DNA of 64,000 nt from Candidatus Woesearchaeota archaeon (GTDB lineage: Archaea > Nanobdellota > Nanobdellia > Woesearchaeales > UBA11576): positions 468,986 through 532,985 of the forward strand of contig JABGYH010000007.1 in assembly GCA_018675335.1 (NCBI GenBank), given 5' to 3'. The notes beneath the pieces are model-generated. The model saw only the letters and a program-made list of their open reading frames with translations, did no database searches and was not told the origin of the DNA. Shown here one piece after another: positions 4,862 through 61,302 of the stretch; the first letter of the stretch is position 1, and each line of letters opens with the position of its first letter. The position numbers and the translations under genes are program-made.

Positions 4862-4910
4862 AAAAATAAATGCAATTTGATAAATAAACCTGATTTGATA
4901 GTGAAAAAAT

Positions 4911-5483: not shown

Positions 5484-5531
5484 GAGTGCAATATTATTTT
5501 TTTGATATATTATTTTTTTAAGAGGAATTTT

Positions 5532-6167: not shown

Positions 6168-6215
6168 ATTAAATGAATTAATTGTTTTAAAAAAATAAAA
6201 TAATTGTGTTAAAGA

Positions 6216-7694: not shown

Positions 7695-7704
7695 ATAGTT
7701 TAAA

Positions 7705-10674: not shown

Positions 10675-10721
10675 TTTTAAAATTATTATTTATTAGAATT
10701 CCAAATGAATTAAAACAAAAA

Positions 10722-12707: not shown

Positions 12708-12710
12708 AAA

Positions 12711-16285: not shown

Positions 16286-16430
16286 GTTTCATTTTATTTT
16301 TAAACTTTAAAAAGAAATCAACAGTTTTTTAAAGATCTATTTTTAACGTAACTATAGTGTATTGTCCTAACTCAATATTGGATAATCATAATAAATAATC
16401 ATATTAAATAATAAACTCGGGTGGTAATTA

Positions 16431-18872: not shown

Positions 18873-19000
18873 TTTTGATTTGTATTTTGTAGTTTTTTAA
18901 AAATTGATTTTTACTGAACTTTTTAGTTTCATAGTTGTTCAACTTCACAATTGTATAAACCGTAAACTTTAAAAAGAATGAAATTATTCTTTATATAAAT

Positions 19001-19273
19001 ATGAATATAAAAGAAGAGAGACTTGCAAGAGGACTTAGTGCGAACTCTCGCAGACAGATTCTAAAACTTATTTCAGACCAAGAATTAACAGTAAAAGATA
19101 TTGCGCAACAAACAAACATGAGTGTATCATTAACTTCTAGACATTTAACATTACTTTATGATTTAGGTTTTTTAAATTTAAGAATAAAGCATCCAAACAA
19201 GTTCTATTCATTAAAAATTAAGGAATTAAAAGATTTATTGAAAGTTTATGATAAGGTAATTAAAAAACTATGA
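19001..19273 (+). CDS. ArsR/SmtB-type winged-helix transcriptional regulator
   Basis: SRRQILKLISDQELTVKDIAQQTNMSVSLTSRHLTLLYDLGFL is a typical ArsR HTH. Its stop TGA (19271-19273) overlaps ATG 19270 of the giant gene. Confidence 0.75.
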   Translation: MNIKEERLARGLSANSRRQILKLISDQELTVKDIAQQTNMSVSLTSRHLTLLYDLGFLNLRIKHPNKFYSLKIKELKDLLKVYDKVIKKL

Positions 19274-22200
19274 ACTCAATTAATTTGAAACAAATTAGTG
19301 AAAGCCAAAAATTGGCAATGGTTTTAATAGTTACATTACTTATTGGTATTGGTGGAATTCTTAGTATAAATTTAAATTCAACAAATGTGGGAGTTGCGTC
19401 TGAAAATAACAATAATTTGTTTTCAGATTCAATTAATAGTTTCTTTTCTAGTAAAATGGGATTAACTGGATATTCCGTAAAAGACTCAGGAATTTTAGAT
19501 GTTGGGGTTGATGATAGCAGCGAGAATGAAAATTTGTTAGAGGTTCAAGGAGAATGGACTGGTTGTCAATCAGGGCCTATATTAACTCCTGGAATTTTTA
19601 CATTAACTCAAGATGATACTACTACTGAAACTTGTTTCCTTATAAGTACTGATGATTTGTGGATAGATTGTCAAGGGCACACGTTTACTAATGATCTGGG
19701 AGATTCAGGTGTTTATGTAAGTAATAGCAGGGATAATATTTCAGTTTTTAACTGTACTTTTATTAATTTTAGTTCTGGTGTAGATATTCATGGAGCGAGT
19801 ATTGGCTCAAATATTTCTTATGTAAACATTTATAATTCAGTATATGGAATTAAATTAGGATCAACTTCGGGAGGAGTTACAAATAGTTATTTTATTAATA
19901 ATCAAATCATAAATACAACTCAAGAAGCAATTAAATTTGATTCATTTGAAACAAATACTGGAAATTATTTTATTAATAATTATTTACAAAATTTTTCAAA
20001 AGGCTTTTTAATTGTTTCTGAGGATTCTGCAATAAATTATTTTTATAATAATCAATTAATTAATGGAACTATATTTGGATTTCAATTTGGTCAAAATACT
20101 ACTTCCATATTGATAAATAATACAATATCAAATGTTTTACAACGAAGTTTAGAACTTAATAGTGATGCTGAAGTAGAATCAATTGATACTACCCTAATAA
20201 ATGCAGGGTTATATGCAATAGATGATACAACAGATCCTGGCAATTATAGTTCACTGATTTATAATAATTCATTTGGTTTAATTAATTGGACAAAAGAAGA
20301 TCTTACAATTGGCGCGTTTGATTTAGAAGTTGGTTCAACAATATTTTTAGAAGAGAATAATATTGGTTTGGCAGACTTACCGGGGCTATCATCTCTTGAT
20401 TCTTTTGCACAAATAGAAATTAAGGGAGTTGATTTTACTGGGGATCCACAACTGGTTAAATTAGGAACTAATTGTAGCAGTCCAAATTGTAATGTAACGT
20501 CTTCTCTATCTGGACAATATGTCAAAGCAGATGTTAATGGTTTTAGTAATTACTCAATATATCAAGAAGAAACAACTCAAGAATATTTTACTTTTCAGAT
20601 TAATACCAGTCATATTGCTGGAACTAATTTTTCATTTCAGGCCGACGATGCGAATTTAACAGTTTGGTGGAATGAAACAAACTACACAAATTACGTTGAT
20701 TATGATGGACTAATGTGGCATAATTATTCTACTGAGGGAATTTACAATATTTCAGTAAATGGAACTGCATCAAGAATATCATTTTATGAAGGAACTGAAG
20801 ATGCACTAATAGACATACTAACAAATGTATCAAATGGGGTTAGTGGAATTACTAGTGCTTATAGAATGTTTATGGATGCAGATAATTTTGGAATAACTCC
20901 ATTAACTGAACCTAATTTCTTTGATGAGCTTTCTGAAAATATAACTACGTTGCAAAGCATATTTTCTTCATCGAGTTTTAATCAAGATGTTAGTAATTGG
21001 AATGTTTCTAATGTAATTACTATGTCTGAATCGTTTTCAAATTCGCCTTTTAACCAAAATATCGATAATTGGGATGTATCTAATGTTAAAGATATGAGTT
21101 TAATGTTTAATTATGCTCAAGATTTTAATCAAAATCTTAGCAACTGGAATGTTTCAAATGTTTTAGATATGCGCAACATGTTTTCAGGAGCATTTGATTT
21201 TAATGGAAATATAACTGATTGGGATGTTTCTAATGTAATTAATATGAATTCAATGTTTAATAATGCATTAAATTTTAATCAAAACATAAGTTCGTGGAAT
21301 GTTTCTAATGTTACTAACATGGGATATATGTTTAGAAGTACTTATGATTTTAATCAAGATATTGGTTCTTGGGACGTCTCGAATGTTGAGCAAATGGATT
21401 TTATGTTTAATATTGTTTCTGATTTTAATCAGGATATTAGTGCTTGGAATGTTTCTAAAGTTACTAATATGAACTCTATGTTTAGACAATCAGAAAGTTT
21501 TAATCAAAACTTAAGTTCTTGGGATGTTTCAAATGTTCAAAATATGCGTAATATGTTTTATAATTCTGTTTTTGATCAGGATATAAGTTCTTGGAATGTT
21601 TCTAATGCGGTTGATATGAGTTATATGTTTTATGATTCTATTTTTGATCAGAATATTAGTTCTTGGGATGTGTCGAATGTAACTGATATGACACACATGT
21701 TTCAAAATTCAGATTTTAATCAAAATATTAGTAGTTGGAATGTATCTAATTTGATTGATATGGGTTATATGTTTTGGAATTCTCAGTTTAATCAAAGTAT
21801 TGGTGAGTGGGATGTATCAAGTGTAACTAATATGAATAGTACATTTATTTATTCTCAGTTTGATCAGGATATAAGTTCTTGGAATGTTTCTAATGTGGTT
21901 GATATGAGTTACATGTTTTATGACTCTTTCTTTGATCAGGATATTGGTGCTTGGAATGTTTCTAGTGTGACAGATATGAGCGGCATGTTTGAAAGTTATC
22001 AATTATCTCGAGAAAATTATGATAGTTTGTTAAATGGTTGGGCTGAATTAACATTGACTGATTCAGTAATTTTTGGTGCAGGAAATTCACAATATTGTTT
22101 AGGTGAGACTGCTAGAAATTCAATATTAACAAATGAATCAGAATATAATTGGACAATTACTGATGGTGGAAAAAATTGTAGTGGTATAAGTTTTGATCCA

Positions 22201-34200: not shown

Positions 34201-37200
34201 TATGATTTAGTGACTGGTGAATTAACTAATAATTGGGATGCAGTGATGGATGGTGATATTGGTTGGGCAACAGAAGTTGTTTCCGATAATCAAAGTAATT
34301 TTTATTATACTACTCTTGCTTCGGAAGTTGTAGCTAAACGAAATTCTTCAGGTGATTCTCAATGGTATTATAATTTTGATGAATCTGCATCTCAATCTAT
34401 TGAAGGAATTGCATTAAGTAACGATGATAGATTATTTTTGTATTCTGAAGAAAATTTAACAATTTTGAACAATTTAGATTCGGAAACTCCGTCATTTTAT
34501 GCTAATTTAACTTATGAGGGGGAAACAATTAAAGCAGTAGTTGCTGAGCATAATTCTAATAGAATGTTCTTTGTTGTTACTAAAGATGACACTACGGGTA
34601 ATTTATCTTTTTATCAATATGATGATGGTGATGGAGTTACTTGGAACGGGGATGAATTAACTGGTTCGTTATCCTTTTTGCCTGCGGATTATAATATTAG
34701 TTCGGAATCTGATGCATTGCTTGGTGCTGAAATGACTGCTTGGGTGTATCCTGTTGTGCTATTTAAAAATAAAGATGATTCTTACGCATATAATCTGATA
34801 TCTTTTGAATGGAATTTTGAAAATGTATTTATTAATTCTCAAATTAGACCTGGAAATGAAAGTGAATCATACTCTAATTATAATTTACGAACTGAAAAAT
34901 CTGGTGATGATCCAGTCACTACTGTGAGTGCAACATCAACTGCAGGAGATGGAAAAATTTTGATTCATGATTATAATGGGAATTATATAAGTGAATATAA
35001 TTATTCTCAATTACCAATAAATTTAGTTTCATTTAATTTAAATGGTCTAAATATAGCCGAATCTGCTAATGAAACAATTCCGTTTAATTTTGGAGCTTAT
35101 TTTTATGTAAATACGTCAAATCCAACTCAAACAAATTTTTTATTATCGGGAGAATCTGAAATTATTAATTGGTATGTCAATGCAACTGGGCCTTTATTTT
35201 CGTCATATATCCTGCAATCCGAATCATATTTATCCGAAACTCCATTTGTTAATTCCTCTTCACAAATATTAAATATAACTATAGTTTCTGCAGGAGAGTC
35301 TAATTTTTCTGGTTTGGTCGAATTGACAAATCCAATAGTATGTAGTAATGGGTATACTTCAGGTAATGGAGATTTTAATATTTCTAATGAAACAGTAATT
35401 TGTGAAAATGGACTTTTAGAAGTTATGGGGGACATAAATATATTTGAATCGATGCAAGGTGATTCTGAATTTATCGAAGTTAATAATTTTACTTTAGATG
35501 AAATAGGCTATGTTGATTTTGTTGAAGAAAATTATATTGGGTCGGTTAATATTCCTGTTGATATAAGTTTTGTTGATCAAAATTATAGTCCTGATTGGGA
35601 TAGCGGAATTGGCGAATTTAGAATAACATTTAATGAAGCAAATAAAATTGGTGTTTATTTAGATAATGTTCCTGAAAATGTAATTTATATGATTGATACT
35701 GATGGAAATTCTTCATTAGGAGTTAATTTTGGCGGGCCTATGAATGGAACTGAAGTTATTTTTGGTAATATTGGAGGGAATTATGTTGCGGGTTGTTGGA
35801 ATGAAACTGCACCTATGGAACAGCCATTTACTTTTTTAGAAAGTGGAGATTACTGTGATAATTCATTTCATTCAAATATAGGTTCAAATACGACTGTGAT
35901 TTATGATACTTTTGGAACTGCAGCAGAATACGTTTTTGATGTTACATCAGGATGGCATGAAGAAGAACTTCTTGTTTGGGTAGTTCAATTTAATGCTAGC
36001 GCAGGTGATAACGGTGAGATGGGATATACCTTATTTGCATCTACTAATTTATCTGGGTTTGGAGAAGTAGAATCTGGCTCTGAAGGAAATTTAATAATTA
36101 GAAATGTTACCTTAAAACCTGAAGGCTCAATTAATTCTTTTGGAAATTTATCAATTAATTATTCAATTGTAGAATTTCAAATGACTGAAAATGGAAGTAG
36201 TAATTTTAGTATTGGTAGTGGCGAGTATGATCAAGAGTATAGTGCAATTGCAAATATTTCTTTAAGTGAAATTAGAAGTAATGATTCTGAATATTATTGG
36301 GGTTTTAGAGTGTATGGTGTAGATCATGTTACTTTATTTGATAATGATTTTTCTGATTCTGGACTTGTTGGTGATCAATGGGGTTGGACTCATGATAATC
36401 GATTTGGTCAATGCTATAATTTGTCTATTGTTTCAAATATTTTTAGTAATTCTGCAGAACAAAGATCAGTTAATTTAGCAGACACAATATATGATTTAGA
36501 ATTTGTTTCAAATGAAATTAAAAATTATGCTTCATTATCTATTTCAGATATTTTAGGAGAAAATACTTCAGTAGTTATTAGTTCAAATATTTTAGGGTCT
36601 TTATTTATAGAAAATTTAAATGATACTTTATTTGAAAATAATACTATTATTGGTTCGATGATTTTAGCTAATGAAGCTGAACAAAACTCTTCAAATAATA
36701 CTTTTTTGAATAATAATTTTCAGGGCGGAATAATTGATAATAATTATCTTTTTGAAAATGTTTTAGTTTATAATAATTCTTATGGCGAGTTTAGAGTTGA
36801 AAGTAATAATATATCTATTGAACCTGGACCGTATAGTTTAGGTTTAGGAATGTCCGAATTATTTATTGAAAATAATAATATTACTATTGAAACAATTTTT
36901 GAATCTTGGAATGCAACACTTAAATTTTACGATCTTCCTTGGAGCGGAGGCGTAAATTTAACTCGAAATAATATTTTACAATTAGAATGTAATTATTACG
37001 AGTGTGAGTATAATAATATTACAGGCATTATGCAAGTTAATCAAACTGAACTTCCAATTGACGTTACTTATTCAACTGTTGGAAATATGGGTGTTTTTGA
37101 AGAACATACTTTCTTAGAATCATTCTTTGATGATTTTAGTCCTAATTTGAATTTATCATTTTACGAACTTGATTTAGATGAATTAGGAGTTATTTTTTCA

Positions 37201-39996
37201 AGCGATGATTATTTGCATGCAGAATTTGATTTAACTCAAGAAGAGTCTTCTAGTGTTGAGGTTATTACATTAAATTATGTTGAACCTTCTGTTGATTTTG
37301 AGGCTTTTGTAAATGTTAGTTTGCATCCAGAGTTAGGTTCTTTTGAAGAAGATGCTGTTTTATCAAGTGGGTTATTTGTATTTAATGAATTTAATGATGA
37401 CTTGTTTTTTGGTTGTGATTTTATTTATAATTCGTCTGGTTACTATTTTATGGGTGAATCTGATATTGATGAAACTAATTTGCCAATATCTGGTGTTGCT
37501 GATTCAGGAATTCTTAGTTTATCTTTTGATTCAGTTAACAATCAATCAACCTGTAGTTATGATGGTAATGAAATTACATTCAATGCAACTGTTGGAGAAG
37601 ATTATGTTTTAGCACTGGGGATGGGTCTTGATCGAGATGAAAATTGGGATAATGTTACAGGTGCAGGAAATGTTTCGATGGATGATTTAACATTTACAAC
37701 CATATCTCCTGGTTTTTTAGAATCATTCTTTGATGATTTTAGTCCTAATTTGAATTTATCATTTTATAATTTAGATGTGAATGAATTAGGAGTTAATTTT
37801 TCATCTATTGATTATTTACATTCCGAATTTGATTTAACTCAAGAAACAGGTTCTATTGTCGATATTATTACTTTTGATTATTTGGAAATTGGTGAAGATT
37901 TTGATGCATCAGTATATGTTAATTTGTTTCCCGAAATAGGATCATTTACTGAGGATGCTTATTTGTTTAATGCAATTTCTGTTTTTAATGTTGAAGATGA
38001 TGATTTATATTTTGGGTGTGAAGTTTCATATAATTCTTCTGGATATTATTTTAAAGGTAGGTCTGATATTGATGAAACTAATTTGCCGATAGGAGAAGTT
38101 TCTAGTTCAGGTTTAATTAATATGTCTTTTGACTCTGTTAATAACCAATCAACTTGTAGTTATGATGGTAATGAAATAATATTTAATGCAACTGTTGGAA
38201 GCGAATATATTTTAGCGTTAAATATGGGTCTTGATCGAGATTATGAATATACTAATGTCACTGGAATTGGAAATGTTTCGATGGATGATTTAACATTTAA
38301 TATTGAATCTCCTGGAGAATTAGAATCATTTTTTGATAATTTTTCAGAATTTAATGAAAGTTTTTATGATGTTTCAGATGAGGATAATGCAAGTTATGAA
38401 ACAACGCCTGCATTATTTATGAACGAAAGTATTGAAGATGATTCGGGAATATATGTTGATTTTTTAACTGAGGATTATGTACCTCTAAATAATTTTTCTC
38501 TTTCAATGGAGGTTAATTTAATTCCTCAAATTGGAAGTTTTGAAAATGGAACTTATTTATTGTCGTATGTTGGAGTGGTAAGCTCTGGCGAAGATGATGA
38601 TTGGTATGGGTGTGAATTAAGATATAATAGTTCGGGATATTTCTTTTCAGCAGTTTCAGAACCAGATTTTATTGGCACGAGCGCGCAAATTGTGGGTGAA
38701 GGAAAAATTACTTTTACTTATAATAGTTCAGATAATTCATCCGTTTGTTTATTTGATAATACTTCAATTCAATTTAGTGCTCCATTAGTTCCATTAGAAT
38801 TCAAAGTAGCAATGTCGATGGGAATTGATAATGATAATGAACAAACTTTTGGGAACGGCGAGGGTAATGTAACTATTGATAATCTAAATTATACTATAAT
38901 TCATACATTTGAAAATGATGTTCCAGTTATTCCTCAAACACCAGGTGGTGGAAGTGGTGGAGGTGGAAGTGATAATCCTGTGACTCATTATGTAATTCCA
39001 ACATATGACGGAGTGGATATTTCAGTAAATAGTAAAGATAAAATAACTTTGCTGTACGAAGGACAAGAGTATGATTATAAAATAAGTCAATTAACAACTT
39101 CATTATTGTTGCTTAGTAGACTTTATTCGCCTTACTTATACAATTTTGTTCCTGGTAGTGAAGTTACTATAGGTGTAAGTAATATTTTTGAAGATCAAGT
39201 TATTATAACTTACACTCAAATAGGAAAATTAGATGTGATGAATTTTAAATTGTATGCATCCCCTAAAAAACCAAATTATAATTTATTACCCCCTAAGAAA
39301 AAAGTATTTACTCCTATAATTGATGATCCTATAATCCCTGAGGAGGATACATTTATACCTGAAAAAATACTTGAAGAAATCCAAGATATGATTGAAGTTC
39401 CAGTACTAGAAGAAATGCCAAAAGAACCAATATGGGATAAAATAAAAAGTTTATTGTGGTTTGTATTATATGTATGTTTAATTTTAGGCGTGGTTGCTGG
39501 AGCAAGTTATGCAGTTCCAAAAACATATTCTTATTTGAGTTATGTGTGGCCATTAAGAAGATTTAACCCTTCAGATTTATTAAAAGGAAGACCACAACGA
39601 AAATTAGATCAAGTAAGTAATAAATTTGAATCAGTTAAACATGAAGATTCACAAATTGAAAAAATAGAACAGAATAAAGTGGAAACTTCCAAAGTAAAAA
39701 ATAATAAATTAGAACAAGTAATTGAACCGGTAAAAATAATTCCTGAAGTTAAACCAATTGAAAACCCAACCCCAATTGAAGAGTCAAATTCAGTTGAGTC
39801 TGATAATCAAATTATGGGACATGTTGATTTAAATGAAATTGATAGTAAAATAAATTTAGCATTTAAAAAATCCGAAATTGATAGTTTAGATGAACATGAT
39901 ACTCGAATTGATACAGTTCATGATGCGTTAGAAGAAATTAATCAAGCATTGGACAAAGTCAAAAAAGAAATGAAAGATTCGAATAAGAAAGAATAA
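19270..39996 (+). CDS. Giant (6,908 aa) cell-surface protein: N-terminal TM/signal, right-handed beta-helix modules, BspA/DUF285-type repeats, LamG domain, CARDB-like modules, tandem C-terminal repeats, C-terminal TM anchor
   Basis: Uninterrupted 20,727-nt ORF. N-terminal helix LAMVLIVTLLIGIGGIL. 14 + 5 repeats of F[ND]Q[DN]IssW[ND]VSNVtnMxxMF. LamG-like segment FSVWIYPTSS...LNIVGRYNGTNISIYVNG...IDEFMIFNRSLS at about 23385-23950. Seven modules start with a Cys-framed cap of the type ETCLxxxxxxITLDCQG. TM segment LLWFVLYVCLILGVVAGASYAV lies at about 39451-39516 and is followed by a ~160-aa tail. Confidence 0.85.
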   Translation: MNSINLKQISESQKLAMVLIVTLLIGIGGILSINLNSTNVGVASENNNNLFSDSINSFFSSKMGLTGYSVKDSGILDVGVDDSSENENLLEVQGEWTGCQSGPILTPGIFTLTQDDTTTETCFLISTDDLWIDCQGHTFTNDLGDSGVYVSNSRDNISVFNCTFINFSSGVDIHGASIGSNISYVNIYNSVYGIKLGSTSGGVTNSYFINNQIINTTQEAIKFDSFETNTGNYFINNYLQNFSKGFLIVSEDSAINYFYNNQLINGTIFGFQFGQNTTSILINNTISNVLQRSLELNSDAEVESIDTTLINAGLYAIDDTTDPGNYSSLIYNNSFGLINWTKEDLTIGAFDLEVGSTIFLEENNIGLADLPGLSSLDSFAQIEIKGVDFTGDPQLVKLGTNCSSPNCNVTSSLSGQYVKADVNGFSNYSIYQEETTQEYFTFQINTSHIAGTNFSFQADDANLTVWWNETNYTNYVDYDGLMWHNYSTEGIYNISVNGTASRISFYEGTEDALIDILTNVSNGVSGITSAYRMFMDADNFGITPLTEPNFFDELSENITTLQSIFSSSSFNQDVSNWNVSNVITMSESFSNSPFNQNIDNWDVSNVKDMSLMFNYAQDFNQNLSNWNVSNVLDMRNMFSGAFDFNGNITDWDVSNVINMNSMFNNALNFNQNISSWNVSNVTNMGYMFRSTYDFNQDIGSWDVSNVEQMDFMFNIVSDFNQDISAWNVSKVTNMNSMFRQSESFNQNLSSWDVSNVQNMRNMFYNSVFDQDISSWNVSNAVDMSYMFYDSIFDQNISSWDVSNVTDMTHMFQNSDFNQNISSWNVSNLIDMGYMFWNSQFNQSIGEWDVSSVTNMNSTFIYSQFDQDISSWNVSNVVDMSYMFYDSFFDQDIGAWNVSSVTDMSGMFESYQLSRENYDSLLNGWAELTLTDSVIFGAGNSQYCLGETARNSILTNESEYNWTITDGGKNCSGISFDPTNKFTFQINTSHIAGTNFSFQADDANLTVWWNETNYTNYTDYTGLMWHNYSADGIYNISVNGTASRISFFEGAEDALIDILTNISLGVSGITNAENMFRDTVNFGITQLTEPNFFDEISENITTMQYMFSGSKFNQDISSWDVSNVTNMYVLFGNSPFNQDISSWNVSNVGTMGYMFSNTIFNQDISSWDVSNVVVMANMFANSFFNQDISSWDVSNVTNMYAMFGNSPFNQDIGSWNVSNVINLQYMFQDSQLSRENYDSLLNGWAELTLTDSVNFEAGNSQYCLGEESRNDTLIDTYNWVITDGGKNCSGIINNLPIINDLILNSTNNLINNTNQNLTSYWTVSDDDEDSVKNITDWKVNGTSLFIANIPFEGGSNFSFTKDYSPIENEIIVNGADWISTGGFDGRGAYDFTQNTDVVSIMSSANNDLTGKYGITFSVWIYPTSSSAWSRIFYRKWSTVDEDPWSAYSMYFDDAGKIGFALTLDDNNAYGTTTSSAIPLNQWLNIVGRYNGTNISIYVNGVLNNTAQGNGSLIPLGDPIINGNIDIGKNTFKTTQTFSGLIDEFMIFNRSLSDEQIFVIYENKSNILVSEETTTGENWSFCVTPNDGIGDGNQVCSNEVEILGGDCDYYINSCGNLNNPGNYCLTENLTSSETCLTLNNNSITLDCQGYNVTGDNSVDNSQGITSPEGNFENGTIQNCEISGFEQGIYLNNFNNVLIFNNTVFNNYFGQSGAGIYLSGGVNVSLSDNNIYDNYEYGISLNQVSNSSIFNNLIYNISDGASWVSKGIYSDASFNLTFFNNFINSSSDGFYGSGNYINFSNNQIWNMNTTGAKLNNINNSILEYNIMTNMRPASTSIRISNPINLSFRFNNLTNVSRLLSIGETLENQILLESNNFNSYYLYTYNINLGSVSILADNNYWNGSTCEQIMSMVDHDDDSKFFLTNVLNDSWPQGIPEDCGELYCGQFVNESKNLTENRQCEHEWIKIVEDNITIDGLNNLINYSRGTRTSNGITALNVVNITVQNCSLLRPDGYQQDQPAIYFENVSQSEIFNNSFNILGYEHYSYPVYLYESQLIDVYDNYMNTECYYCYGVFTKNSDQITIHNNTVNTSMLDAHGFKSEYSTNIDYFLNNITANAYLSEGFRIEDSENVSIINNFFNATSYSSNPVNAQSTINLTIESNEFLTPGSGGLSISGTQYSHFDHNIANNNTIDGFSIWVNKSVQNHQLNNELLNDFGQVICLNCENVSYYNTTFGIDGLGLFGGTNISLINSSFSTSTSGSILDYTLANFNFLNSSINGAGPTNYGLVINSINATIQNSLINTAGSGVDSIQVNSEGFVINNSEIFSGPLALRLNNADFSFVDNINTTTVSGQGIVLEWSDFVIIKNSNINSTSYSLRNYYSDNNLFENLDLYSESNCGLFLYAGDAENLTLKDSIIKHNSANSVCSQDNNIMARLLNTSFNHSKNFSFSNSDGAIFVDWYVQFNVTNITEEQLDLAEIQILNVTGDLIESVNTNSSGLTEMLTIREFNQTSSNKTMMTPHDVTIDLAGFEQENFMLNLSETESTLQNITLIPTGYYQEVSECGVLDTEDMYYKLVADLESNETCITIAAEGITLDCQEHSINYSINESFGYGINNSGYTEVNINNCTVKTSSGWGAGPAIYFNGSQGGIHNSNITMPEDNSAIYVDYPTVSVNISNNYISAVGASGEGITFAGFNSYIENNFIEVDVVDAIRIVQYGFANKIFNNTIYSELATQIGINIVDSYNQGNPNGLNNNISSNKLTNSQIWIQNSNNNFLEDNKINSTEYNSIGLINSFNLSIDSSNLVEGFSVYYNESIENEILLENEIVNETYGQIICNNCSNITYNNVTFGSDGITFFNSANISINNSRGISGVGSLVWAYNSKDINITFSVFNSSQEEEDGMSLFSLNLYQSNNSNIYGNTFIADKTDTFSLYYSSVNDVFVSNNLFDLNSYRSRGISCGSCTGELSFNYNNFSIGGNYSQAFYYLPSHAEISHNKFNSSNVIEDLSYVLDSNIFDSTNLTIYNNSFYGYLRLMNLRGYSYNVSNNYFDMDDSDQSLLTLSTSNSFFNNNIMGCPSNYCVQLVAGTNNNFTNNTLIGDDSIVIDDGSGIFIDGELNTTGIYFSGSAAGNITIAQSVYFNITNSTLDGLDNSQVLVNDLFGAGVINAMTNSTGLTGYYVLNEFLENKTERINYSPHQVNVSLAGYNSNNSLVNISELEDFEIQKTLEIFVGGSLAIQQNEPAEFLLIDNGAIFNYSVNISCQDGPCGNITLILDPQDSEEKGNVTLDSSGDKTKQIVSINSVNLEDNNSFLYDVQLSGCYLTEGQSDAYDGFFDLNVNYSEYGGLRFEDNSLEGWANCESQIISDLNITRKIYVSDQENWIRYLEILQNPTEQEICVNVSISGDLGSDSSTVCVNTSDGDNDFTIADSWFITDDEGDLGGGSENDPTLAFVFQEDNFGVERIDSAYCADGDDMPYWQWNDTCVFPGETKILMHYGVQQTDRSAALVEVLDIQENFLSEIHTARMSDAEQEQIINWGFSKGVIPNGSGNPFYTVSENPRTSITDNCLTNMQADESCEINWTVHTNSSGGDYTFFVIAESDISEVLGVLSSNVTILVDGANPELVSKQPQNDAIFGDGPISQDFNCTFSDDVNLSNISLYITDETDQNFVLNSSQNKIGLENTSDWNLDLIDGNYTWACLAKDQFGKQAWSQNNTVEVGYSGFLIDECINITLPGNYILSNSINSISGNCININVSNVNLDCLENTISSSNMNNGINVEDADNISITGCSFENLSRGINIVGNYGIYLNNLNINRNQVTSNNVSYGIYLYYINNSIIQNNLFESLPYAIYGDYSDNLLVQNNNFDSGDSVLRIYYVNNLSFNQNNLTSISSDVINLQGVLLGSGDKLNISQNNFIDTSSTLYFSGAFNVSAQQNYWNSTSCSEIISKIGYQGGTKFEFEPFLDDVWPAGEEQDCGEEIYCGMIIDESINLTQDLSCDSNGLNFGGSNLVIDCKGYKIKSENIYSYYTAIRDLYNSNNTIQNCSVEQFRSGVGGDGTNLTIKYNNFTNHTSLLSYYGSVNLSYNNFFNISETFLLVDGEIIAENNYWNSTDCNEISNKISRNHLGSNIVFYPVLDAPWPIGQPRDCQSPYCNEFLNHSIILTEDLNCLVNGLIIDNENITVDCAGHTIRYSGDDYYSDYTTGLNIERTNATIKNCNVSNFYDGIRGYFTDRINLSDIEIYNSSQFGITFNNVPYSNLNNLSLINNERAIEFQDQPDTNVTNSLIYNTQLMDYVNVDLLRLHGTNLFFENITIENISAEYCSSFSAINVRDMSHSEFRNVVIKNMSNPGGCDSYYEANGIYVSSYGYTYDNITFVNLDIQNVSDKSIYTPYAAEINYVFDTENGTISWQNKSAVDINATSFVLGEQVFIEENLLGLADNELLSNLNSTAQLIFKGLGHPAEPEILKNGVLCGEEEGCNVTYFNSQEDMLIVEVDSFSNYSTQLNLIDYEFSVEVGENVTGSVGENVSYVVNVTNEGLISDNYTIYLDSNETDYANINQTEFDQVGFGEQISFNLTTRDDSPGDYLAGVYVRSEGNNSNDLLIQFNTTFETQAGIINVTKLNPLGSEETVQYNTIFNYSILVGCELGDCGNISSELFRYNNTEIEIVPYWSGNPYRSINPTPKNYTNYSCLGNMTQGDTCQLDWLVFSEELPGLNSMVYANLSSDVLGFSNTMSDEVNITMDYISGNLNQTRIVPISNQLFKSPDDYINYTILVGCNVISGCNDLTVSLYWYNNTDHELVPYNSGTPFRDIISNPKTKFTDECLDDMLFEETCQLEWGIIVDSNVPNSEYDIYSNITSSSEGILPIVTEELNITIGETTEIEINLIEPQNTITNFTQNEFNNYSVNISCVGSNDCGIITAGVYFQNISNDTFEQVFSFYDVSDLTSIARYDYSGESIFSFSEYNKSLNSISEGGDYVYLASTEDDIYQYDLVTGELTNNWDAVMDGDIGWATEVVSDNQSNFYYTTLASEVVAKRNSSGDSQWYYNFDESASQSIEGIALSNDDRLFLYSEENLTILNNLDSETPSFYANLTYEGETIKAVVAEHNSNRMFFVVTKDDTTGNLSFYQYDDGDGVTWNGDELTGSLSFLPADYNISSESDALLGAEMTAWVYPVVLFKNKDDSYAYNLISFEWNFENVFINSQIRPGNESESYSNYNLRTEKSGDDPVTTVSATSTAGDGKILIHDYNGNYISEYNYSQLPINLVSFNLNGLNIAESANETIPFNFGAYFYVNTSNPTQTNFLLSGESEIINWYVNATGPLFSSYILQSESYLSETPFVNSSSQILNITIVSAGESNFSGLVELTNPIVCSNGYTSGNGDFNISNETVICENGLLEVMGDINIFESMQGDSEFIEVNNFTLDEIGYVDFVEENYIGSVNIPVDISFVDQNYSPDWDSGIGEFRITFNEANKIGVYLDNVPENVIYMIDTDGNSSLGVNFGGPMNGTEVIFGNIGGNYVAGCWNETAPMEQPFTFLESGDYCDNSFHSNIGSNTTVIYDTFGTAAEYVFDVTSGWHEEELLVWVVQFNASAGDNGEMGYTLFASTNLSGFGEVESGSEGNLIIRNVTLKPEGSINSFGNLSINYSIVEFQMTENGSSNFSIGSGEYDQEYSAIANISLSEIRSNDSEYYWGFRVYGVDHVTLFDNDFSDSGLVGDQWGWTHDNRFGQCYNLSIVSNIFSNSAEQRSVNLADTIYDLEFVSNEIKNYASLSISDILGENTSVVISSNILGSLFIENLNDTLFENNTIIGSMILANEAEQNSSNNTFLNNNFQGGIIDNNYLFENVLVYNNSYGEFRVESNNISIEPGPYSLGLGMSELFIENNNITIETIFESWNATLKFYDLPWSGGVNLTRNNILQLECNYYECEYNNITGIMQVNQTELPIDVTYSTVGNMGVFEEHTFLESFFDDFSPNLNLSFYELDLDELGVIFSSDDYLHAEFDLTQEESSSVEVITLNYVEPSVDFEAFVNVSLHPELGSFEEDAVLSSGLFVFNEFNDDLFFGCDFIYNSSGYYFMGESDIDETNLPISGVADSGILSLSFDSVNNQSTCSYDGNEITFNATVGEDYVLALGMGLDRDENWDNVTGAGNVSMDDLTFTTISPGFLESFFDDFSPNLNLSFYNLDVNELGVNFSSIDYLHSEFDLTQETGSIVDIITFDYLEIGEDFDASVYVNLFPEIGSFTEDAYLFNAISVFNVEDDDLYFGCEVSYNSSGYYFKGRSDIDETNLPIGEVSSSGLINMSFDSVNNQSTCSYDGNEIIFNATVGSEYILALNMGLDRDYEYTNVTGIGNVSMDDLTFNIESPGELESFFDNFSEFNESFYDVSDEDNASYETTPALFMNESIEDDSGIYVDFLTEDYVPLNNFSLSMEVNLIPQIGSFENGTYLLSYVGVVSSGEDDDWYGCELRYNSSGYFFSAVSEPDFIGTSAQIVGEGKITFTYNSSDNSSVCLFDNTSIQFSAPLVPLEFKVAMSMGIDNDNEQTFGNGEGNVTIDNLNYTIIHTFENDVPVIPQTPGGGSGGGGSDNPVTHYVIPTYDGVDISVNSKDKITLLYEGQEYDYKISQLTTSLLLLSRLYSPYLYNFVPGSEVTIGVSNIFEDQVIITYTQIGKLDVMNFKLYASPKKPNYNLLPPKKKVFTPIIDDPIIPEEDTFIPEKILEEIQDMIEVPVLEEMPKEPIWDKIKSLLWFVLYVCLILGVVAGASYAVPKTYSYLSYVWPLRRFNPSDLLKGRPQRKLDQVSNKFESVKHEDSQIEKIEQNKVETSKVKNNKLEQVIEPVKIIPEVKPIENPTPIEESNSVESDNQIMGHVDLNEIDSKINLAFKKSEIDSLDEHDTRIDTVHDALEEINQALDKVKKEMKDSNKKE
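20960..21990 (+). repeat. Array of 14 in-frame 24-25-aa BspA/DUF285-type leucine-rich repeats (coding)
   Basis: I counted W[ND]VS[NKS]..M...[MT]F units in the translated giant ORF. The period is 72-75 nt. Confidence 0.85.
22585..22950 (+). repeat. Second array of 5 BspA/DUF285-type repeats (coding), part of a duplicated cassette
   Basis: Same repeat consensus as the first array. Two ~110-nt stretches inside it (about 22602-22712 and 22824-22934) are nearly identical. Confidence 0.8.
37111..38919 (+). repeat. Three tandem 603-nt (201-aa) coding repeats near the C-terminus of the giant protein
   Basis: Units start at 37111, 37714 and 38317 with FLESFFDDFSPNLNLSFY / FLESFFDDFSPNLNLSFY / ELESFFDNFSEFNESFY. 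Copies 1 and 2 are clearly more similar to each other than to copy 3. Confidence 0.85.
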
Positions 39997-40212: not shown

Positions 40213-40470
40213 ATGGAAAAAACAATGCCAGTTAAAGTTTTCAAAGTAGGTGCTATTTCTGCTTCAATTTGGGTTAATAAAATTCAAAAAGATGGAAAAG
40301 AATTTGCATATAGTACTATAAGTTTAGAACGCAATTACAAGGATCGAGAAGGTCAGTGGAAAAAAACTAATTCAATGAGACTTAATGATATTCCCAAAGC
40401 TACACTTATTTTGAATAAATCGTATGAATATTTAGCAATGGAACATCCAGAATTAGCGCAAATGGCGTAA
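40213..40470 (+). CDS. Small (85 aa) putative ssDNA-binding protein, tentatively PC4/YdbC-like
   Basis: ATG 40213 is preceded by AAGGGGG. The TTG 40126 extension lies inside a predicted leader hairpin. ISASIWVNK...ISLERNYKDREGQWKKTNSMRLNDIPKATLIL resembles the PC4-like beta-sheet plus helix pattern. The function call is weak. Confidence 0.4.
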   Translation: MEKTMPVKVFKVGAISASIWVNKIQKDGKEFAYSTISLERNYKDREGQWKKTNSMRLNDIPKATLILNKSYEYLAMEHPELAQMA

Positions 40471-61042: not shown

Positions 61043-61302
61043 GTGATCACCCAAGTACACAGAATATGTGTTATTTAATAATTATTATTTAGTATTTATT
61101 TTTGTTATTTGTTATTGAGTGTTTGTTATCAAAACTGATTTATATATTTAACCACTTTAAAATAATTTATTATAATTTAGTGAGATTCTAATTTGTTGTG
61201 AATTTTTTCATAAAACCATTTATAAAGTTTTTTTAGTATTGCTTAAATATGTTAATAACTATTCCTAAATTAATAAATACTACATTAAATTAAGGCTTCT
61301 AA

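What the first reader, a model, noticed from the sequence alone, without database searches (positions are those of the whole stretch)
19001..39996. ArsR-type regulator translationally coupled to a 6,908-aa, 20.7-kb surface-protein gene
The regulator stop and the giant-gene start share ATGA (19270-19273), so the two are almost certainly co-transcribed. The giant ORF takes up about one third of the window. It is bracketed by an N-terminal helix and a C-terminal TM anchor with a ~160-aa charged tail, predicting a ~6,700-aa ectodomain. Its modules are adhesin- or depolymerase-like: BspA/DUF285 LRRs, LamG, at least 7 pectate-lyase-like beta-helices, CARDB-like units carrying CL.NM...C..W motifs, and a possible beta-propeller at about 34000-35000. 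N-x-S/T sequons are extremely frequent, for example WNVS in many repeats and runs such as NISxxNxT, which suggests heavy N-glycosylation. Because it lies directly downstream of the murein-hydrolase operon, it is a plausible host or prey-contact organelle. Pairing a small metal- or ligand-sensing HTH with such a gene is unusual.
Basis: partly seen in the sequence, partly recalled or inferred. Interest (0 to 1): 0.75.

Follow-up and report, generated by a model that had tools for sequence, protein, structure and literature searches.

The report
Conserved regulator–giant surface protein operon
A tiny DNA-binding protein gene and a 6,908-residue sugar-coated surface-protein gene form a two-gene unit in a marine DPANN (Woesearchaeota) archaeon. 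The same unit, with the same unusual promoter, recurs in dozens of related lineages, so it is probably the dedicated control module for these cells' fast-evolving contact proteins.

Summary
A 90-aa ArsR/SmtB-fold wHTH gene (19001-19273) overlaps by ATGA an uninterrupted 6,908-aa ORF (19270-39996), and that ORF is called at the same length in separate assemblies.

The host is an archaeon (RadA, PCNA, PAN, Hef, PriL, RPA; about 29% GC). Its closest relatives are Woesearchaeota MAGs.

The pairing is not accidental. Every wHTH orthologue of at least 57% identity, in about 26 species-level genomes and about 22 metagenome loci, is followed by a large, module-shuffled surface-protein gene of roughly 0.5-3.2 kaa that is rich in N-x-S/T sequons. 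The junction is usually the same ATGA overlap.

These partner proteins share a leader: a K/R stub, a TM helix, then (L/I)TGAA(V/I).

The operons share a promoter. It has an AGTTTCAy-AGTT-GTGAAACT-type palindrome, then 1-7 phased 8-bp AAyTnnnn units, then a BRE/TATA element AACTTTAWAAAG.

Five or more lineages fuse two wHTH copies into one chain.

The regulator has no metal- or thiol-sensor residues. Its nearest structures are HlyU-type.

DUF285/PARCEL, LamG and about 7-8 beta-helices are confirmed. CARDB and the beta-propeller are not.

The link to murein hydrolases is loose and is not conserved.

Best reading: an autoregulated operon for a host- or substrate-contact adhesin. The giant is an expanded member of a known DPANN protein kind. 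The conserved operon and its promoter appear not to have been described.

The parts
18925..18944 (+). Operator-like element AGTTTCATAGTTGTTCAACT. This is the window's variant of the conserved 8-4-8 palindrome AGTTTCAC-AGTT-GTGAAACT.
   Evidence: It occurs once in the 64-kb window (0.14 expected). It occurs once per locus, on the + strand, 60-110 nt upstream of the wHTH ATG in 22 orthologous loci. It was found again in about 28 metagenome loci.
18941..18964 (+). Three phased 8-bp units (AACTTCAC AATTGTAT AAACCGTA) that link the palindrome to the BRE/TATA element.
   Evidence: The palindrome-to-TATA distance is a multiple of 8 in 17/17 genome loci and 21/21 metagenome loci (24-72 nt). The unit consensus is AAyTnnnn.
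18964..18976 (+). BRE/TATA-like core promoter AAACTTTAAAAAG.
   Evidence: It is conserved as AACTTTAWAAAG 35-46 nt before the wHTH ATG in nearly all orthologous loci. Assigning it as the promoter is an inference.
18986..18990 (+). Conserved ATTCT, probably the initiator / transcription start region. It would give a 5' leader of about 11-15 nt.
   Evidence: It is conserved at the same offset in the aligned upstream regions. The position is inferred from the usual archaeal spacing between TATA and the transcription start site.
19001..19273 (+). 90-aa minimal ArsR/SmtB-fold winged-helix protein (alpha1-alpha2-alpha3-alphaR-wing-alpha5) with no sensor site.
   Evidence: Pfam HTH_5 scores 47 bits. 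A PDB profile search puts HlyU first at E = 3e-12. The AF2 model has pLDDT 95, and Foldseek gives HlyU TM 0.81, followed by CzrA, CadC and SmtB. There are 115 homologues, nearly all 90 aa long.
19253..19260 (+). Degenerate SD-like AAGGTAAT inside the wHTH codons K-V-I, 9 nt before the giant gene's ATG.
   Evidence: 12 of 20 orthologues have AAGGTGAT at this position.
19270..19273 (+). ATGA stop/start overlap.
   Evidence: Searches show it in the window. It is conserved in 20/26 genome loci and 16/19 metagenome loci.
19270..19479 (+). Leader of the giant protein: a cytoplasmic stub, a TM helix (aa 13-33), a spacer, and a degenerate LTGYSV (aa 65-70) at the position of the family motif (L/I)TGAA(V/I).
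   Evidence: The motif occurs once, at residues 50-110, in 20 of 23 partner proteins (0.04 expected from shuffles). Among 167 ORFs of at least 200 aa it is almost exclusive to wHTH partners.
19552..20559 (+). Beta-helix 1 (aa ~95-330) followed by cap/linker module A (aa 330-430).
   Evidence: Pfam Beta_helix E = 2e-4. Module A recurs at aa 4388-4490 and in about 12 orthologous proteins.
20587..23139 (+). Two DUF285/PARCEL leucine-rich-repeat arrays, each with an N-terminal domain and a C-terminal cap (aa 440-975 and 981-1290). This is a recent tandem duplication.
   Evidence: Pfam DUF285 E = 4e-160 and 2e-66, and NCBIfam PARCEL repeat. The first 160 aa of the two copies are 80% identical at the protein level, and the DNA is 86% identical.
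23137..24069 (+). LamG/concanavalin-like lectin block (aa 1290-1600).
   Evidence: Laminin_G_3 E = 7e-27. It is the module most widely shared with orthologous partners.
24067..28909 (+). Three beta-helix domains (aa ~1600-1950, 1950-2450, 2550-3120). The last two are each followed by a beta-sandwich (aa 2449-2538 = 3123-3212).
   Evidence: Pfam Beta_helix and NosD hits and self-similarity.
28903..30411 (+). Unassigned region (aa 3212-3600) containing a C...C...W unit, followed by a conserved Ig-like module (aa 3600-3714).
   Evidence: There is no Pfam or PDB match. The Ig-like module recurs in 8 orthologous proteins at 30-47% identity.
30412..32739 (+). Three further beta-helix domains (aa 3715-4390) and a second copy of module A (aa 4388-4490).
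   Evidence: Pfam Beta_helix/NosD and NCBIfam NosD family hits, plus self-similarity.
32767..35340 (+). Repeated ~130-aa units, read as beta-sandwiches from sequence only (aa 4500-4915), then an all-beta region (aa 4915-5357) that might be a beta-propeller.
   Evidence: Self-similarity between 4587-4782 and 4719-4915. Only faint sub-threshold propeller hits. The AF2 model was unusable.
35341..37005 (+). 'Module N' (aa 5358-5912). It is the first ectodomain module in many orthologues, and its C-terminal half looks like a beta-helix plus module A.
   Evidence: It shows 26-29% identity over about 550 aa to the N-terminal regions of the partners in L006, L017, L020, L025, L028 and L029. There is no Pfam or PDB match.
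37006..38904 (+). Three tandem ~200-aa repeats of unknown fold (aa 5913-6545).
   Evidence: Self-similarity of up to 51% identity. No Pfam match.
38902..39996 (+). G/S linker, small domain and Pro-rich stalk (aa 6545-6723), then a TM helix (aa 6724-6746), a 159-aa K/E-rich cytoplasmic tail, and the stop codon.
   Evidence: Hydropathy. The tail has no sequons. It resembles the TM-plus-tail of the syntenic L005 partner.

Best explanation
This is a lineage-wide two-gene operon of Woesearchaeota-type DPANN archaea. A strong BRE/TATA promoter drives a short-leader mRNA.

The first cistron encodes a minimal, sensor-less ArsR/SmtB-fold winged-helix protein. It probably acts as a homodimer on the conserved palindrome, and possibly on the phased half-site-like 8-bp units that run from the palindrome into the BRE. 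In that way it would set transcription of its own operon.

The second cistron starts at the ATGA overlap, so its translation is coupled to that of the first. It encodes a membrane-anchored, very acidic, heavily N-glycosylated surface protein built from shuffled carbohydrate- and surface-binding modules: DUF285/PARCEL LRR, LamG lectin, pectin-lyase-like beta-helices and Ig-like sandwiches. This protein is most likely the cell's variable contact/adhesion protein (possibly also glycan-degrading) for a host, a partner cell or a polymer surface.

The window's 6,908-aa protein is an expanded member. It grew by internal duplication and by accreting modules that are separate or differently ordered in relatives.

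What is shown: the ORFs, the overlap, conservation of the pairing, the promoter and leader motifs, the domain content, the topology signals, the sequon excess, and the regulator's fold.

What is inferred: binding of the wHTH to the palindrome, autoregulation and its sign, surface exposure, glycosylation, and the adhesive role.
For: Pairing:
- All four orthologue loci examined first carry wHTH followed by a 2,068-2,710-aa LamG/NosD/beta-helix protein, even though the flanking genes differ.
- In a scan of one genome per species, every wHTH of at least 57% identity is followed by a large ORF with an N-terminal TM helix. Complete sizes run from 475 to 3,166 aa, and the gap is -4 in 20 of 26 loci.
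- Relatives of 50% identity or less pair instead with PurE, RuBisCO, CBS or P-type ATPase genes.

The partners are mosaic but share modules. They also share a leader motif that occurs once per protein in 20 of 23 cases, against 0.04 expected.

Promoter:
- The palindrome occurs once per locus, always upstream of the wHTH gene.
- The 8-nt phasing holds in 17/17 genome loci and 21/21 independent metagenome loci.

Dimer inference: fused tandem wHTH-wHTH chains, still overlapping the partner gene, occur in L024 and L030-L033, and 181-188-aa forms appear in four metagenome loci.

Fold: AF2 pLDDT 95, Foldseek HlyU TM 0.81, with ArsR/SmtB members filling the top 50 matches.

Surface and glycosylation:
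- TM helices are present at both ends.
- Sequons are 2.1-fold over expectation in the giant (z = 17) and about 2-fold in all partners but one, the 515-aa L019 ORF.
- K+R is 2.8% in the ectodomain.

Coupling: -4 overlaps give termination-reinitiation coupling in archaea (PMC6728339, PMC10666635).

Adhesin precedent: LamG, PKD and pectin-lyase-like glycosylated surface proteins of cultivated DPANN archaea have been proposed to mediate host attachment (PMC10266531; bioRxiv 10.1101/2023.10.27.564410).
Against: - There is no expression, DNA-binding or localisation evidence of any kind.
- The palindrome is not exclusive. A perfect copy lies upstream of an HtpX-like protease gene in an Aenigmatarchaeota MAG (L073). 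Many database hits are in unrelated contexts. Another factor could therefore bind it.
- The window's own palindrome is degenerate (5 of 8 symmetric positions in the outer arms).
- The window's giant has diverged from the family leader. It reads LTGYSV and lacks the K/R-rich stub.
- An 8-bp period does not keep one face of the helix, which is odd for a classical activator site.
- No catalytic residues or substrates were identified for the beta-helices.
- A third of the protein (aa ~4500-6700) has no assigned fold.
- An internal promoter inside the wHTH gene cannot be excluded.
Confidence: 0.55

Rival explanations
1. The large partner is the main envelope (S-layer-like) glycoprotein of these archaea rather than a specialised adhesin. 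Under this reading the wHTH simply ensures high, balanced expression of the cell's dominant surface component.
For: - There appears to be one cassette per locus, with a near-consensus BRE/TATA, which suggests strong expression.
- The partner has an N-terminal signal or anchor and, in about half the cases, a C-terminal TM helix. It carries massive sequon enrichment and is acidic, like archaeal S-layer glycoproteins.
- No S-layer protein has been determined for any DPANN archaeon (bioRxiv 10.1101/2023.10.27.564410).
Against: - Size (475 to 6,908 aa) and module order vary enormously between close lineages. That is hard to reconcile with a lattice-forming protein.
- S-layer candidates in cultivated DPANN archaea are ~1,000-aa Ig-fold proteins. 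Beta-helix and lectin proteins are classed there as other surface proteins (same preprint).
- DUF285 LRR, LamG and beta-helix are binding or glycan-processing modules.
Confidence: 0.15
2. The wHTH and the large protein interact physically. Cytoplasmic parts of the surface protein (the K/R stub, or the K/E-rich C-terminal tail) would sequester or release the regulator, so the operon works as a self-contained contact- or secretion-sensing feedback loop. This is comparable to membrane sequestration of the ArsR-family autorepressor SdpR by SdpI in Bacillus subtilis (recalled from memory, not looked up here).
For: - The -4 overlap is strictly conserved. In H. volcanii, 45% of such gene pairs encode subunits of heteromeric complexes, against 5.6% of distant pairs (PMC10666635).
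- The regulator has no sensor site of its own, so any input must come from elsewhere.
- The only parts conserved across the otherwise shuffled partners are at the membrane and the cytoplasm: the stub, the TM helix and the leader.
- NCBIfam's second-best match is the SdpR autorepressor family, although it is far below cut-off (40 bits against 100).
Against: - There is no direct evidence of an interaction.
- A C-terminal TM plus tail is present in only about half of the partners, and the tails are low-complexity K/E-rich.
- The window's stub is short and uncharged.
- The stub could equally be an ordinary positive-inside signal.
Confidence: 0.12
3. The wHTH is a general regulator or chromatin-like protein. 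Its gene merely supplies a well-translated upstream cistron for the large gene, and the palindrome is bound by some other, more widely distributed DPANN factor.
For: - The perfect palindrome lies upstream of an unrelated HtpX-like gene in an Aenigmatarchaeota MAG, 7 kb from a wHTH that is only 38% identical.
- Several low-GC metagenome contigs carry the palindrome without a wHTH gene.
Against: - Within about 0.5 Mb of orthologous loci the palindrome occurs only at the wHTH promoter.
- ArsR-family proteins typically bind inverted repeats in their own promoters (established family knowledge).
- The fused single-chain dimers fit a palindromic site.
- The stray database hits are at about the level expected by chance for a degenerate 20-mer.
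Confidence: 0.08
4. The 20.7-kb ORF is an assembly artefact or a decaying pseudogene.
For: The gene contains repeat arrays. One short-read assembly breaks at window 20628, inside the 86%-identical repeat.
Against: - Two long contigs from different projects call the same 6,908-aa product, and four contigs are 100% identical across the junction.
- There are no long near-identical repeats.
- The whole ectodomain keeps coding-level signals: 2-fold sequon excess in every 250-aa bin up to the TM helix and paired Cys.
- Orthologues of 2-3 kaa are intact in many genomes.
Confidence: 0.03

Closest known systems
HlyU (Vibrio), an ArsR/SmtB-family regulator of giant exotoxin genes (rtxA1 MARTX operon, hlyA)
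   Same: It is the best sequence and structure match for the 90-aa protein (E = 3e-12; TM 0.81). It is a small ArsR/SmtB-fold dimer without a metal site that controls very large secreted or virulence proteins (PMC4330345, PMC3535394).
   Different: HlyU is bacterial, unlinked to or upstream of its targets, and not translationally coupled to them. It acts by relieving H-NS silencing and is modulated through Cys residues. The archaeal protein has no Cys, sits in the same operon as its presumed target, and faces a BRE/TATA promoter.
Canonical ArsR/SmtB metalloregulators (SmtB, CzrA, CadC, ArsR)
   Same: The fold is the same alpha1-alpha2-alpha3-alphaR-beta-hairpin-alpha5. These proteins typically autoregulate through an inverted repeat in their own promoter.
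   Different: There are no alpha3N or alpha5 metal ligands and no conserved Cys or His outside the recognition helix. The protein scores below NCBIfam's metalloregulator cut-off. The downstream gene is not a metal-resistance gene.
Large LamG / PKD / pectin-lyase-like glycosylated surface proteins of DPANN archaea (Nanobdella MJ1_0451/0701/0776, nanohaloarchaeal LamG proteins) and giant 'SPEARE' proteins
   Same: These are membrane-anchored, sequon-rich proteins from DPANN archaea, built from beta-helix, lectin and Ig-like modules. They are strain-specific and have been proposed to mediate host recognition (PMC10266531; bioRxiv 10.1101/2023.10.27.564410).
   Different: Neither of the two DPANN surface-protein papers consulted describes a dedicated upstream regulator or a shared leader or promoter. 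They were read only through keyword look-ups that did not include regulator terms, so this is not a thorough check. SPEARE-type giants carry a cytoplasmic VirB4/TraG-like ATPase domain, which is absent here. This protein also has DUF285/PARCEL arrays.
DUF285 / PARCEL-repeat (BspA-like LRR) surface proteins of Mycoplasma, Listeria and others
   Same: There are two strong DUF285 arrays (E = 4e-160 and 2e-66).
   Different: Those are bacterial lipoproteins or cell-wall proteins. Here the arrays make up only about 12% of an archaeal multi-module protein.
Repeat-tuned adhesin promoters, e.g. the Helicobacter pylori sabA promoter 'rheostat'
   Same: A variable number of short repeats between an upstream site and the core promoter of an adhesin gene (PMC4081817, from the abstract listing).
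   Different: The H. pylori element is a homopolymeric tract that varies within populations by slippage. Here the 8-bp units are degenerate. Their number varies between lineages (1-7 units after the 16-nt palindrome core), and within-population variation was not tested.

Membership tests
ArsR/SmtB family of winged-helix transcription regulators | Sequence match to the family HTH (Pfam HTH_5) above the curated threshold | tested here: met
   47.1 bits against a cut-off of 22. A profile search of the PDB returns 29 ArsR-type chains, with HlyU at E = 2.6e-12.
ArsR/SmtB family of winged-helix transcription regulators | alpha1-alpha2-alpha3-alphaR-beta1-beta2-alpha5 fold | tested here: met
   The AF2 model has pLDDT 95 with exactly this order of elements. 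Foldseek TM is 0.8-0.88 to HlyU, CzrA, CadC and SmtB.
ArsR/SmtB family of winged-helix transcription regulators | Homodimer that binds an inverted repeat in its own promoter | tested here: inconclusive
   A conserved 8-4-8 palindrome lies upstream of the gene, and natural single-chain wHTH-wHTH fusions exist. Binding itself cannot be tested here.
ArsR/SmtB metal (or thiol) sensors specifically | alpha3/alpha3N Cys ligands, alpha5 Asp/His/Glu ligands, or a redox-active Cys pair | tested here: not met
   The window protein has no Cys, and 18 of 24 clade members have none. The only conserved His is H48, in the recognition helix. Helix alpha5 (aa 76-89) has no His or Cys. NCBIfam HTH_metalloreg scores 49.8, below its cut-off of 55.
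DUF285 / PARCEL-repeat surface proteins | Tandem ~24-25-aa DUF285 repeats above the Pfam and NCBIfam thresholds | tested here: met
   Pfam PF03382 scores 524 and 221 bits against a cut-off of 25. TIGR02167 scores 134 and 62 bits against a cut-off of 30. The DNA period is 72-75 nt.
DPANN pectin-lyase-like / LamG glycosylated surface proteins | A signal or TM anchor, parallel beta-helix and/or concanavalin-like lectin domains, and many N-x-S/T sequons | tested here: met
   Beta_helix/NosD and Laminin_G_3 hits, TM helices, and 332 sequons at z = 17.
Nanohaloarchaeal giant 'SPEARE' / VirB4-domain giant proteins | Cytoplasmic VirB4/TraG-like ATPase domain (earlier read as protease/endonuclease domains) and an adjacent AAA+ ATPase gene | tested here: not met
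   No ATPase or protease Pfam/NCBIfam hit anywhere in the 6,908 aa. The downstream genes are an 85-114-aa ORF and RadA.
Archaeal S-layer glycoprotein | Forms the 2-D lattice, is among the most abundant proteins, and is often anchored by PGF-CTERM/archaeosortase or a C-terminal TM helix | not testable with these tools
   A C-terminal TM helix is present and no PGF-CTERM-type model scored. Abundance and lattice formation need experiments. The extreme variation in size and module order argues against this family.
Translationally coupled (termination-reinitiation) gene pair | A co-directional -4 (ATGA) or -1 overlap on one transcript | tested here: met
   ATGA at 19270-19273, conserved in 36 of 45 orthologous loci. 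The coupling itself has been shown experimentally only for model archaea (PMC6728339, PMC10666635).

The most novel reading that the evidence does not exclude
The operon is a self-contained contact-sensing circuit.

The sensor-less wHTH would be made in fixed ratio with the giant surface protein and held by, or released from, that protein's conserved cytoplasmic stub or tail. Engagement, secretion or processing of the ectodomain would then feed back on transcription. Processing might occur at the conserved (L/I)TGAA(V/I) site.

The feedback would act through a palindrome plus an array of phased 8-bp half-sites that runs into the BRE. The number of units would set the gain in each lineage.

This would be a new type of archaeal one-operon surface-signalling device, and a handle on how DPANN cells regulate host attachment.
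Probability: 0.12. Interest if true: 0.85.

Novelty: new variant of a known kind. Interest (0 to 1): 0.6.

Why it matters
Almost nothing is known about how DPANN archaea regulate the surface proteins thought to mediate attachment to hosts, and no Woesearchaeota member is in pure culture.

This locus offers four concrete handles:
- a small, easily expressed DNA-binding protein;
- a defined candidate operator with an odd 8-bp phased architecture;
- a leader motif that marks one specific class of surface proteins;
- a positional marker (the wHTH gene) that locates each lineage's hypervariable contact protein in fragmented metagenomes.

If the regulator binds the palindrome, it would be the first promoter/regulator pair defined for this large uncultured group. 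It would also provide a way to read 'attachment state' from metatranscriptomes.

The giant protein itself is an extreme but expected member of a known kind.

Tried and rejected
1. The search for homologous proteins was run with giant aa 4900-5976 and with the module-N alignment. Each run returned 8,000 word candidates and none scored. The word index seems to be swamped by the N/S-rich composition, so no admissible MSA rows were obtained for the giant's modules.

2. PDB profile searches with module N, module A and the Ig-like module found nothing.

The single-sequence model of aa 4867-5345 had pLDDT 36 and is unusable, so the beta-propeller claim remains untested.

4. TRF did not detect the 8-bp array because the units are too degenerate. 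The sigma-70 and intrinsic-terminator scans are irrelevant for an archaeon and gave chance-level results.

5. I first noted that there was no SD before the giant's ATG. This was corrected: an SD-like AAGGTGAT encoded by K-V-I is common in orthologues and degenerate in the window.

6. I first assumed the palindrome was exclusive to this promoter. The metagenome scan showed many unrelated hits, including a 36-copy unrelated repeat element. The claim is therefore limited to 'unique within the orthologous loci'.

7. Rejected: a metal-sensing role, because there are no ligand residues.

8. Rejected: a functional link to the murein-hydrolase genes, because the synteny is not conserved.

9. Rejected: SPEARE-type membership, because there is no ATPase domain.

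10. Rejected: a class III (pilin-type) signal peptide. By inspection of the N-terminus there is no K/R-G/A cleavage motif before the hydrophobic stretch.

11. Rfam and tRNA scans of the window found nothing.
Full report
**Observation**

The window holds a 90-aa ORF (19001-19273, +). Its TGA stop shares ATGA with the ATG of an uninterrupted 6,908-aa ORF (19270-39996, +).

The small protein matches Pfam HTH_5 (ArsR family) at 47.1 bits against a cut-off of 22.

The large protein has these features:
- An N-terminal hydrophobic helix (aa 13-33).
- A C-terminal TM helix (aa 6724-6746) followed by a 159-aa K/E-rich tail.
- Two strong DUF285/PARCEL arrays and a LamG domain.
- Pfam beta-helix/NosD hits at five places. 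Further copies recognised by self-similarity bring the total to about 7-8 beta-helices.

CARDB was not detected. The suggested beta-propeller has only sub-threshold hints, and a single-sequence AF2 model was useless at pLDDT 36.

N-x-S/T sequons number 332, against 155 +/- 10 expected from composition (z = 17). None are in the cytoplasmic tail. The ectodomain is extremely acidic, with K+R at 2.8% and D+E at 13%.

**Is the ORF real?**

- The identical 90-aa protein is on nine contigs.
- Two long contigs from different projects (ENA, 556 kb; JGI, 242 kb) both call a 6,908-aa product.
- The four contigs whose DNA could be fetched are 100% identical to the window over their spans. One of them may be the window's own source.
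- One short-read assembly ends at window 20628. That is inside the only notably similar internal repeat (20587-20886 against 22210-22509, 86% identity). All other internal repeats are 75% identical or less.

An assembly artefact or pseudogene is therefore unlikely. Long reads would settle it.

**Organism**

The neighbouring genes are archaeal: RadA, PCNA, proteasome-activating nucleotidase, Hef, the primase large subunit and RPA. GC is about 29%. The wHTH homologues that carry names are from Candidatus Woesearchaeota.

The murein-hydrolase genes (422-15917) are real. However, four genes separate them from the regulator.

**The key result: the pairing is conserved**

The wHTH has 115 homologues, nearly all exactly 90 aa long.

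In four orthologue loci on long contigs, the wHTH is followed by a 2,068-2,710-aa protein. Three of the four carry LamG, and two of those also carry NosD/beta-helix. Three of the four use the same 4-nt overlap.

The flanking genes differ. One locus shares the window's context of RPA and YdjM upstream and RadA downstream. The other three have NOG1 upstream and ribosomal L10e/L16 downstream.

A scan of one genome per species returned 75 loci. Tabulating them showed the following:
- Every wHTH of at least 57% identity is followed by a large + strand ORF with an N-terminal hydrophobic helix.
- Complete sizes are 475, 515, 1,094 ... 3,085 and 3,166 aa. The window's version is more than twice the largest.
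- The gap is -4 in 20 of 26 distinct loci, -11 in two, and +9 to +29 in four.
- Relatives of 50% identity or less (Thermoplasmata, other DPANN) are followed instead by PurE, RuBisCO, CBS or P-type ATPase genes.

The link is therefore specific to this clade.

**The partner proteins**

The partners are positional orthologues but mosaic. They share LamG, beta-helix, a ~100-aa cap module, a ~110-aa Ig-like module and a ~550-aa 'module N'. In the window module N sits at aa 5358-5912, but in many relatives it is the first ectodomain module. The order is shuffled, at about 25-45% identity.

What they do share is a leader: a K/R-rich cytoplasmic stub, a TM helix, a 20-60-aa spacer, and then (L/I)TGAA(V/I).
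- This motif occurs exactly once, at residues 50-110, in 20 of 23 partners (0.04 expected from shuffles).
- Among 167 ORFs of at least 200 aa in these loci, it is found only in the wHTH partners, plus one extra gene in L012 that lies beside a transposase remnant.
- The window's giant has a degenerate LTGYSV at aa 65-70.

About half of the partners also have a C-terminal TM helix and a K/E-rich tail. Sequon enrichment of about 2-fold (z 4.5-13) holds for every partner except one 515-aa ORF (L019).

**The promoter**

Upstream of the wHTH gene, loci with unrelated flanks share one architecture:
- An 8-4-8 palindrome, AGTTTCAC-AGTT-GTGAAACT. The right arm reads GTTCAACT in the window and several other loci.
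- A variable number of 8-bp units with consensus AAyTnnnn (A1 93%, A2 85%, T4 91%).
- The BRE/TATA-like element AACTTTAWAAAG.
- About 10 nt, then a conserved ATTCT.
- A further 10-16 nt, then the ATG.

The window coordinates are: palindrome 18925-18944, units to 18964, BRE/TATA 18964-18976, ATTCT 18986-18990, ATG 19001.

The palindrome-to-TATA distance is 24, 32, 40, 48, 64 or 72 nt in 17 of 17 loci. The palindrome pattern occurs once in the 64-kb window (0.14 expected). It also occurs once per ~20-kb orthologous locus, always at this position.

As a reverse test I scanned the metagenome collection for the palindrome.
- Of 122 hits, about 28 are followed by a wHTH gene.
- 36 belong to an unrelated repeat element.
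- The rest are scattered, at roughly the number expected by chance for a degenerate 20-mer in so large a collection.

The palindrome is therefore not exclusive database-wide. The scan did supply an independent sample. In 21 of 21 distinct loci the spacing is again a multiple of 8 (24-56 nt), and 16 of 19 have the ATGA overlap.

One non-cassette hit is probably meaningful. A perfect palindrome sits upstream of an HtpX-like protease gene in an Aenigmatarchaeota MAG.

**The regulator**

With the 24-sequence alignment, AF2 gives a pLDDT-95 model. Its elements are alpha1 (3-12), alpha2 (15-23), alpha3 (31-38), alphaR (42-55), a beta-hairpin wing (58-71) and alpha5 (76-89).

Foldseek's best matches are HlyU (TM 0.81). 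CzrA, CadC, SmtB, NolR, BigR, SqrR and PagR follow.

The clade has no conserved Cys, and its only conserved His (H48) lies in the recognition helix. NCBIfam's metalloregulator model scores 49.8, below its cut-off of 55.

It is therefore an ArsR/SmtB-fold protein without a recognisable sensor site.

In at least five genome lineages (L024, L030-L033) two wHTH copies are fused into one 179-188-aa chain that still overlaps the partner gene. Four metagenome loci carry wHTH ORFs of similar length (181-188 aa). A natural single-chain dimer fits a homodimer acting on a palindromic site.

**Mechanism proposed**

A strong BRE/TATA promoter makes a short-leader bicistronic mRNA. The wHTH dimer binds the palindrome. 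It may also bind the phased units, which resemble the right half-site (...AAACT) and run into the BRE. Through this binding it would tune its own operon.

The 8-bp period does not preserve helical face. I therefore favour cooperative occupancy toward the BRE (autorepression, or a set-point) over a face-specific activator contact. The sign of regulation is not determined.

Translation of the large gene is coupled through the ATGA overlap. In most orthologues it is helped by an SD-like AAGGTGAT encoded by the conserved K-V-I codons. The window has AAGGTAAT at 19253-19260. Termination-reinitiation at -4 overlaps has been demonstrated in archaea (PMC6728339, PMC10666635).

The product would be inserted by its N-terminal helix, N-glycosylated and displayed on the surface. 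LRR, lectin and beta-helix modules argue for binding, and perhaps cutting, glycans on a host, a partner cell or particulate polymer. This is the role already proposed for pectin-lyase-like and LamG surface proteins of cultivated DPANN archaea (PMC10266531; bioRxiv 10.1101/2023.10.27.564410).

The extreme variation in size and module order between close lineages fits a protein under diversifying pressure. It does not fit a lattice-forming S-layer subunit.

**Rivals**

- An S-layer-like role cannot be excluded without abundance data.
- A physical wHTH-partner interaction is the most interesting alternative. Three things support it weakly. First, in H. volcanii 45% of closely overlapping gene pairs encode complex subunits (PMC10666635). 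Second, the regulator has no sensor of its own. Third, only the membrane-proximal and cytoplasmic parts of the partners are conserved. There is no direct evidence.
- The L073 site leaves open that another factor binds the palindrome.

**Novelty**

Giant and large modular surface proteins in DPANN archaea are known, so the 6,908-aa protein is an expanded member of that kind.

Four features did not turn up in four keyword literature searches, or in keyword look-ups inside the Omnitrophota giant-gene preprint and the two DPANN surface-protein papers. Those searches were narrow, so this is absence of evidence only. The four features are:
- the clade-wide dedicated wHTH;
- the translational coupling;
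- the shared leader motif;
- the phased-repeat promoter.

I rate it a new variant of a known kind: a dedicated small regulator plus a large secreted-protein gene, functionally reminiscent of HlyU-rtxA1. The interest is moderate to high because it is directly testable.

Noticed in passing
window 422-4861 and 7705-10674: The upstream murein-hydrolase-like proteins are depleted in N-x-S/T sequons and are Cys-rich. The 1,479-aa muramidase + amidase has 2 sequons against 10.8 expected. The 989-aa GDSL + amidase + M15 has 0 against 7.8 expected (z about -3). This is the opposite of the giant protein. It suggests either selection against glycosylation or a recent bacterial origin.
   Followed up: partly
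L073 8261-8280 (Aenigmatarchaeota MAG JBAZQV010000031.1; the same sequence as L191): A perfect copy of the 20-bp palindrome AGTTTCACAGTTGTGAAACT lies upstream of an HtpX-like M48 protease gene and is divergent from a RuBisCO gene. It is 7 kb from a wHTH that is only 38% identical. The operator may be used more widely in DPANN archaea.
   Followed up: partly
L024 10001-10540; L031 257-823; also L030, L032, L033; 181-188-aa wHTH ORFs in L112, L119, L172, L182: In several lineages the regulator is a fused tandem wHTH-wHTH single chain of 179-188 aa. It still overlaps the large partner gene by 4 nt. The four metagenome cases are inferred from ORF length only.
   Followed up: yes
L012 733-8838: A second 2,701-aa gene carries the leader motif (LTGAAI at residue 51) but has no wHTH upstream. 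It sits beside what looks like a transposase remnant on the opposite strand. It may be a mobilised paralogue.
   Followed up: partly
metagenome loci L089-L190 (many from Ga0049107 / Ga0049108): An unrelated repeat element of about 50 nt or more begins with the same palindrome (AGTTTCATAGTTGTGAAACTTATTCGGTTCTTTCACGGAGCCCTTCAAT). It occurs at least 36 times in contigs of 40-47% GC and is followed by diverse sequence. It may be a mobile-element terminus.
   Followed up: no
L040-L072 (Thermoplasmata / Saliniplasma MAGs), e.g. L047 10001-10747: Distant relatives of the wHTH (37-45% identity) abut a 154-157-aa PurE (AIR carboxylase) gene, with gaps of 0-20 nt (0 in about half of them). This is a different conserved regulator-target pair. 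Others pair with RuBisCO, CBS or P-type ATPase genes.
   Followed up: partly
N-termini of partner proteins in L006, L014, L018, L024, L027, L033, L035: The cytoplasmic stubs share a recurrent x-W-(K/E)-R motif. Several partners (L008, L014, L018, L019, L023) also have (K/A/S/G)-E-R immediately before the TM helix. Both are absent from the window's giant.
   Followed up: no
window 16302-16314 and 61218-61230 (-): The same BRE/TATA 13-mer (AAACTTTAAAAAG, or AAACTTTATAAAT with one mismatch) occurs upstream of the RPA gene and of the M48 protease gene. No palindrome is present at the M48 site, and the pattern search found none anywhere in the window outside 18925-18944. This 13-mer is probably the organism's strong core-promoter consensus.
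   Followed up: partly
window 40214-40470: A small ORF of about 85 aa lies between the giant gene and radA. A similarly sized 84-aa gene sits at the same position in the syntenic L005 locus. It has no Pfam match.
   Followed up: no
giant aa 3212-3610 and 4867-5345 (window 28903-30099 and 33868-35304): By eye, the ~130-aa C...C...W unit appears twice with a whole extra domain inserted between its two halves. The insertions are about 240 aa in one case and about 350 aa in the other. The larger insertion is the putative propeller.
   Followed up: no
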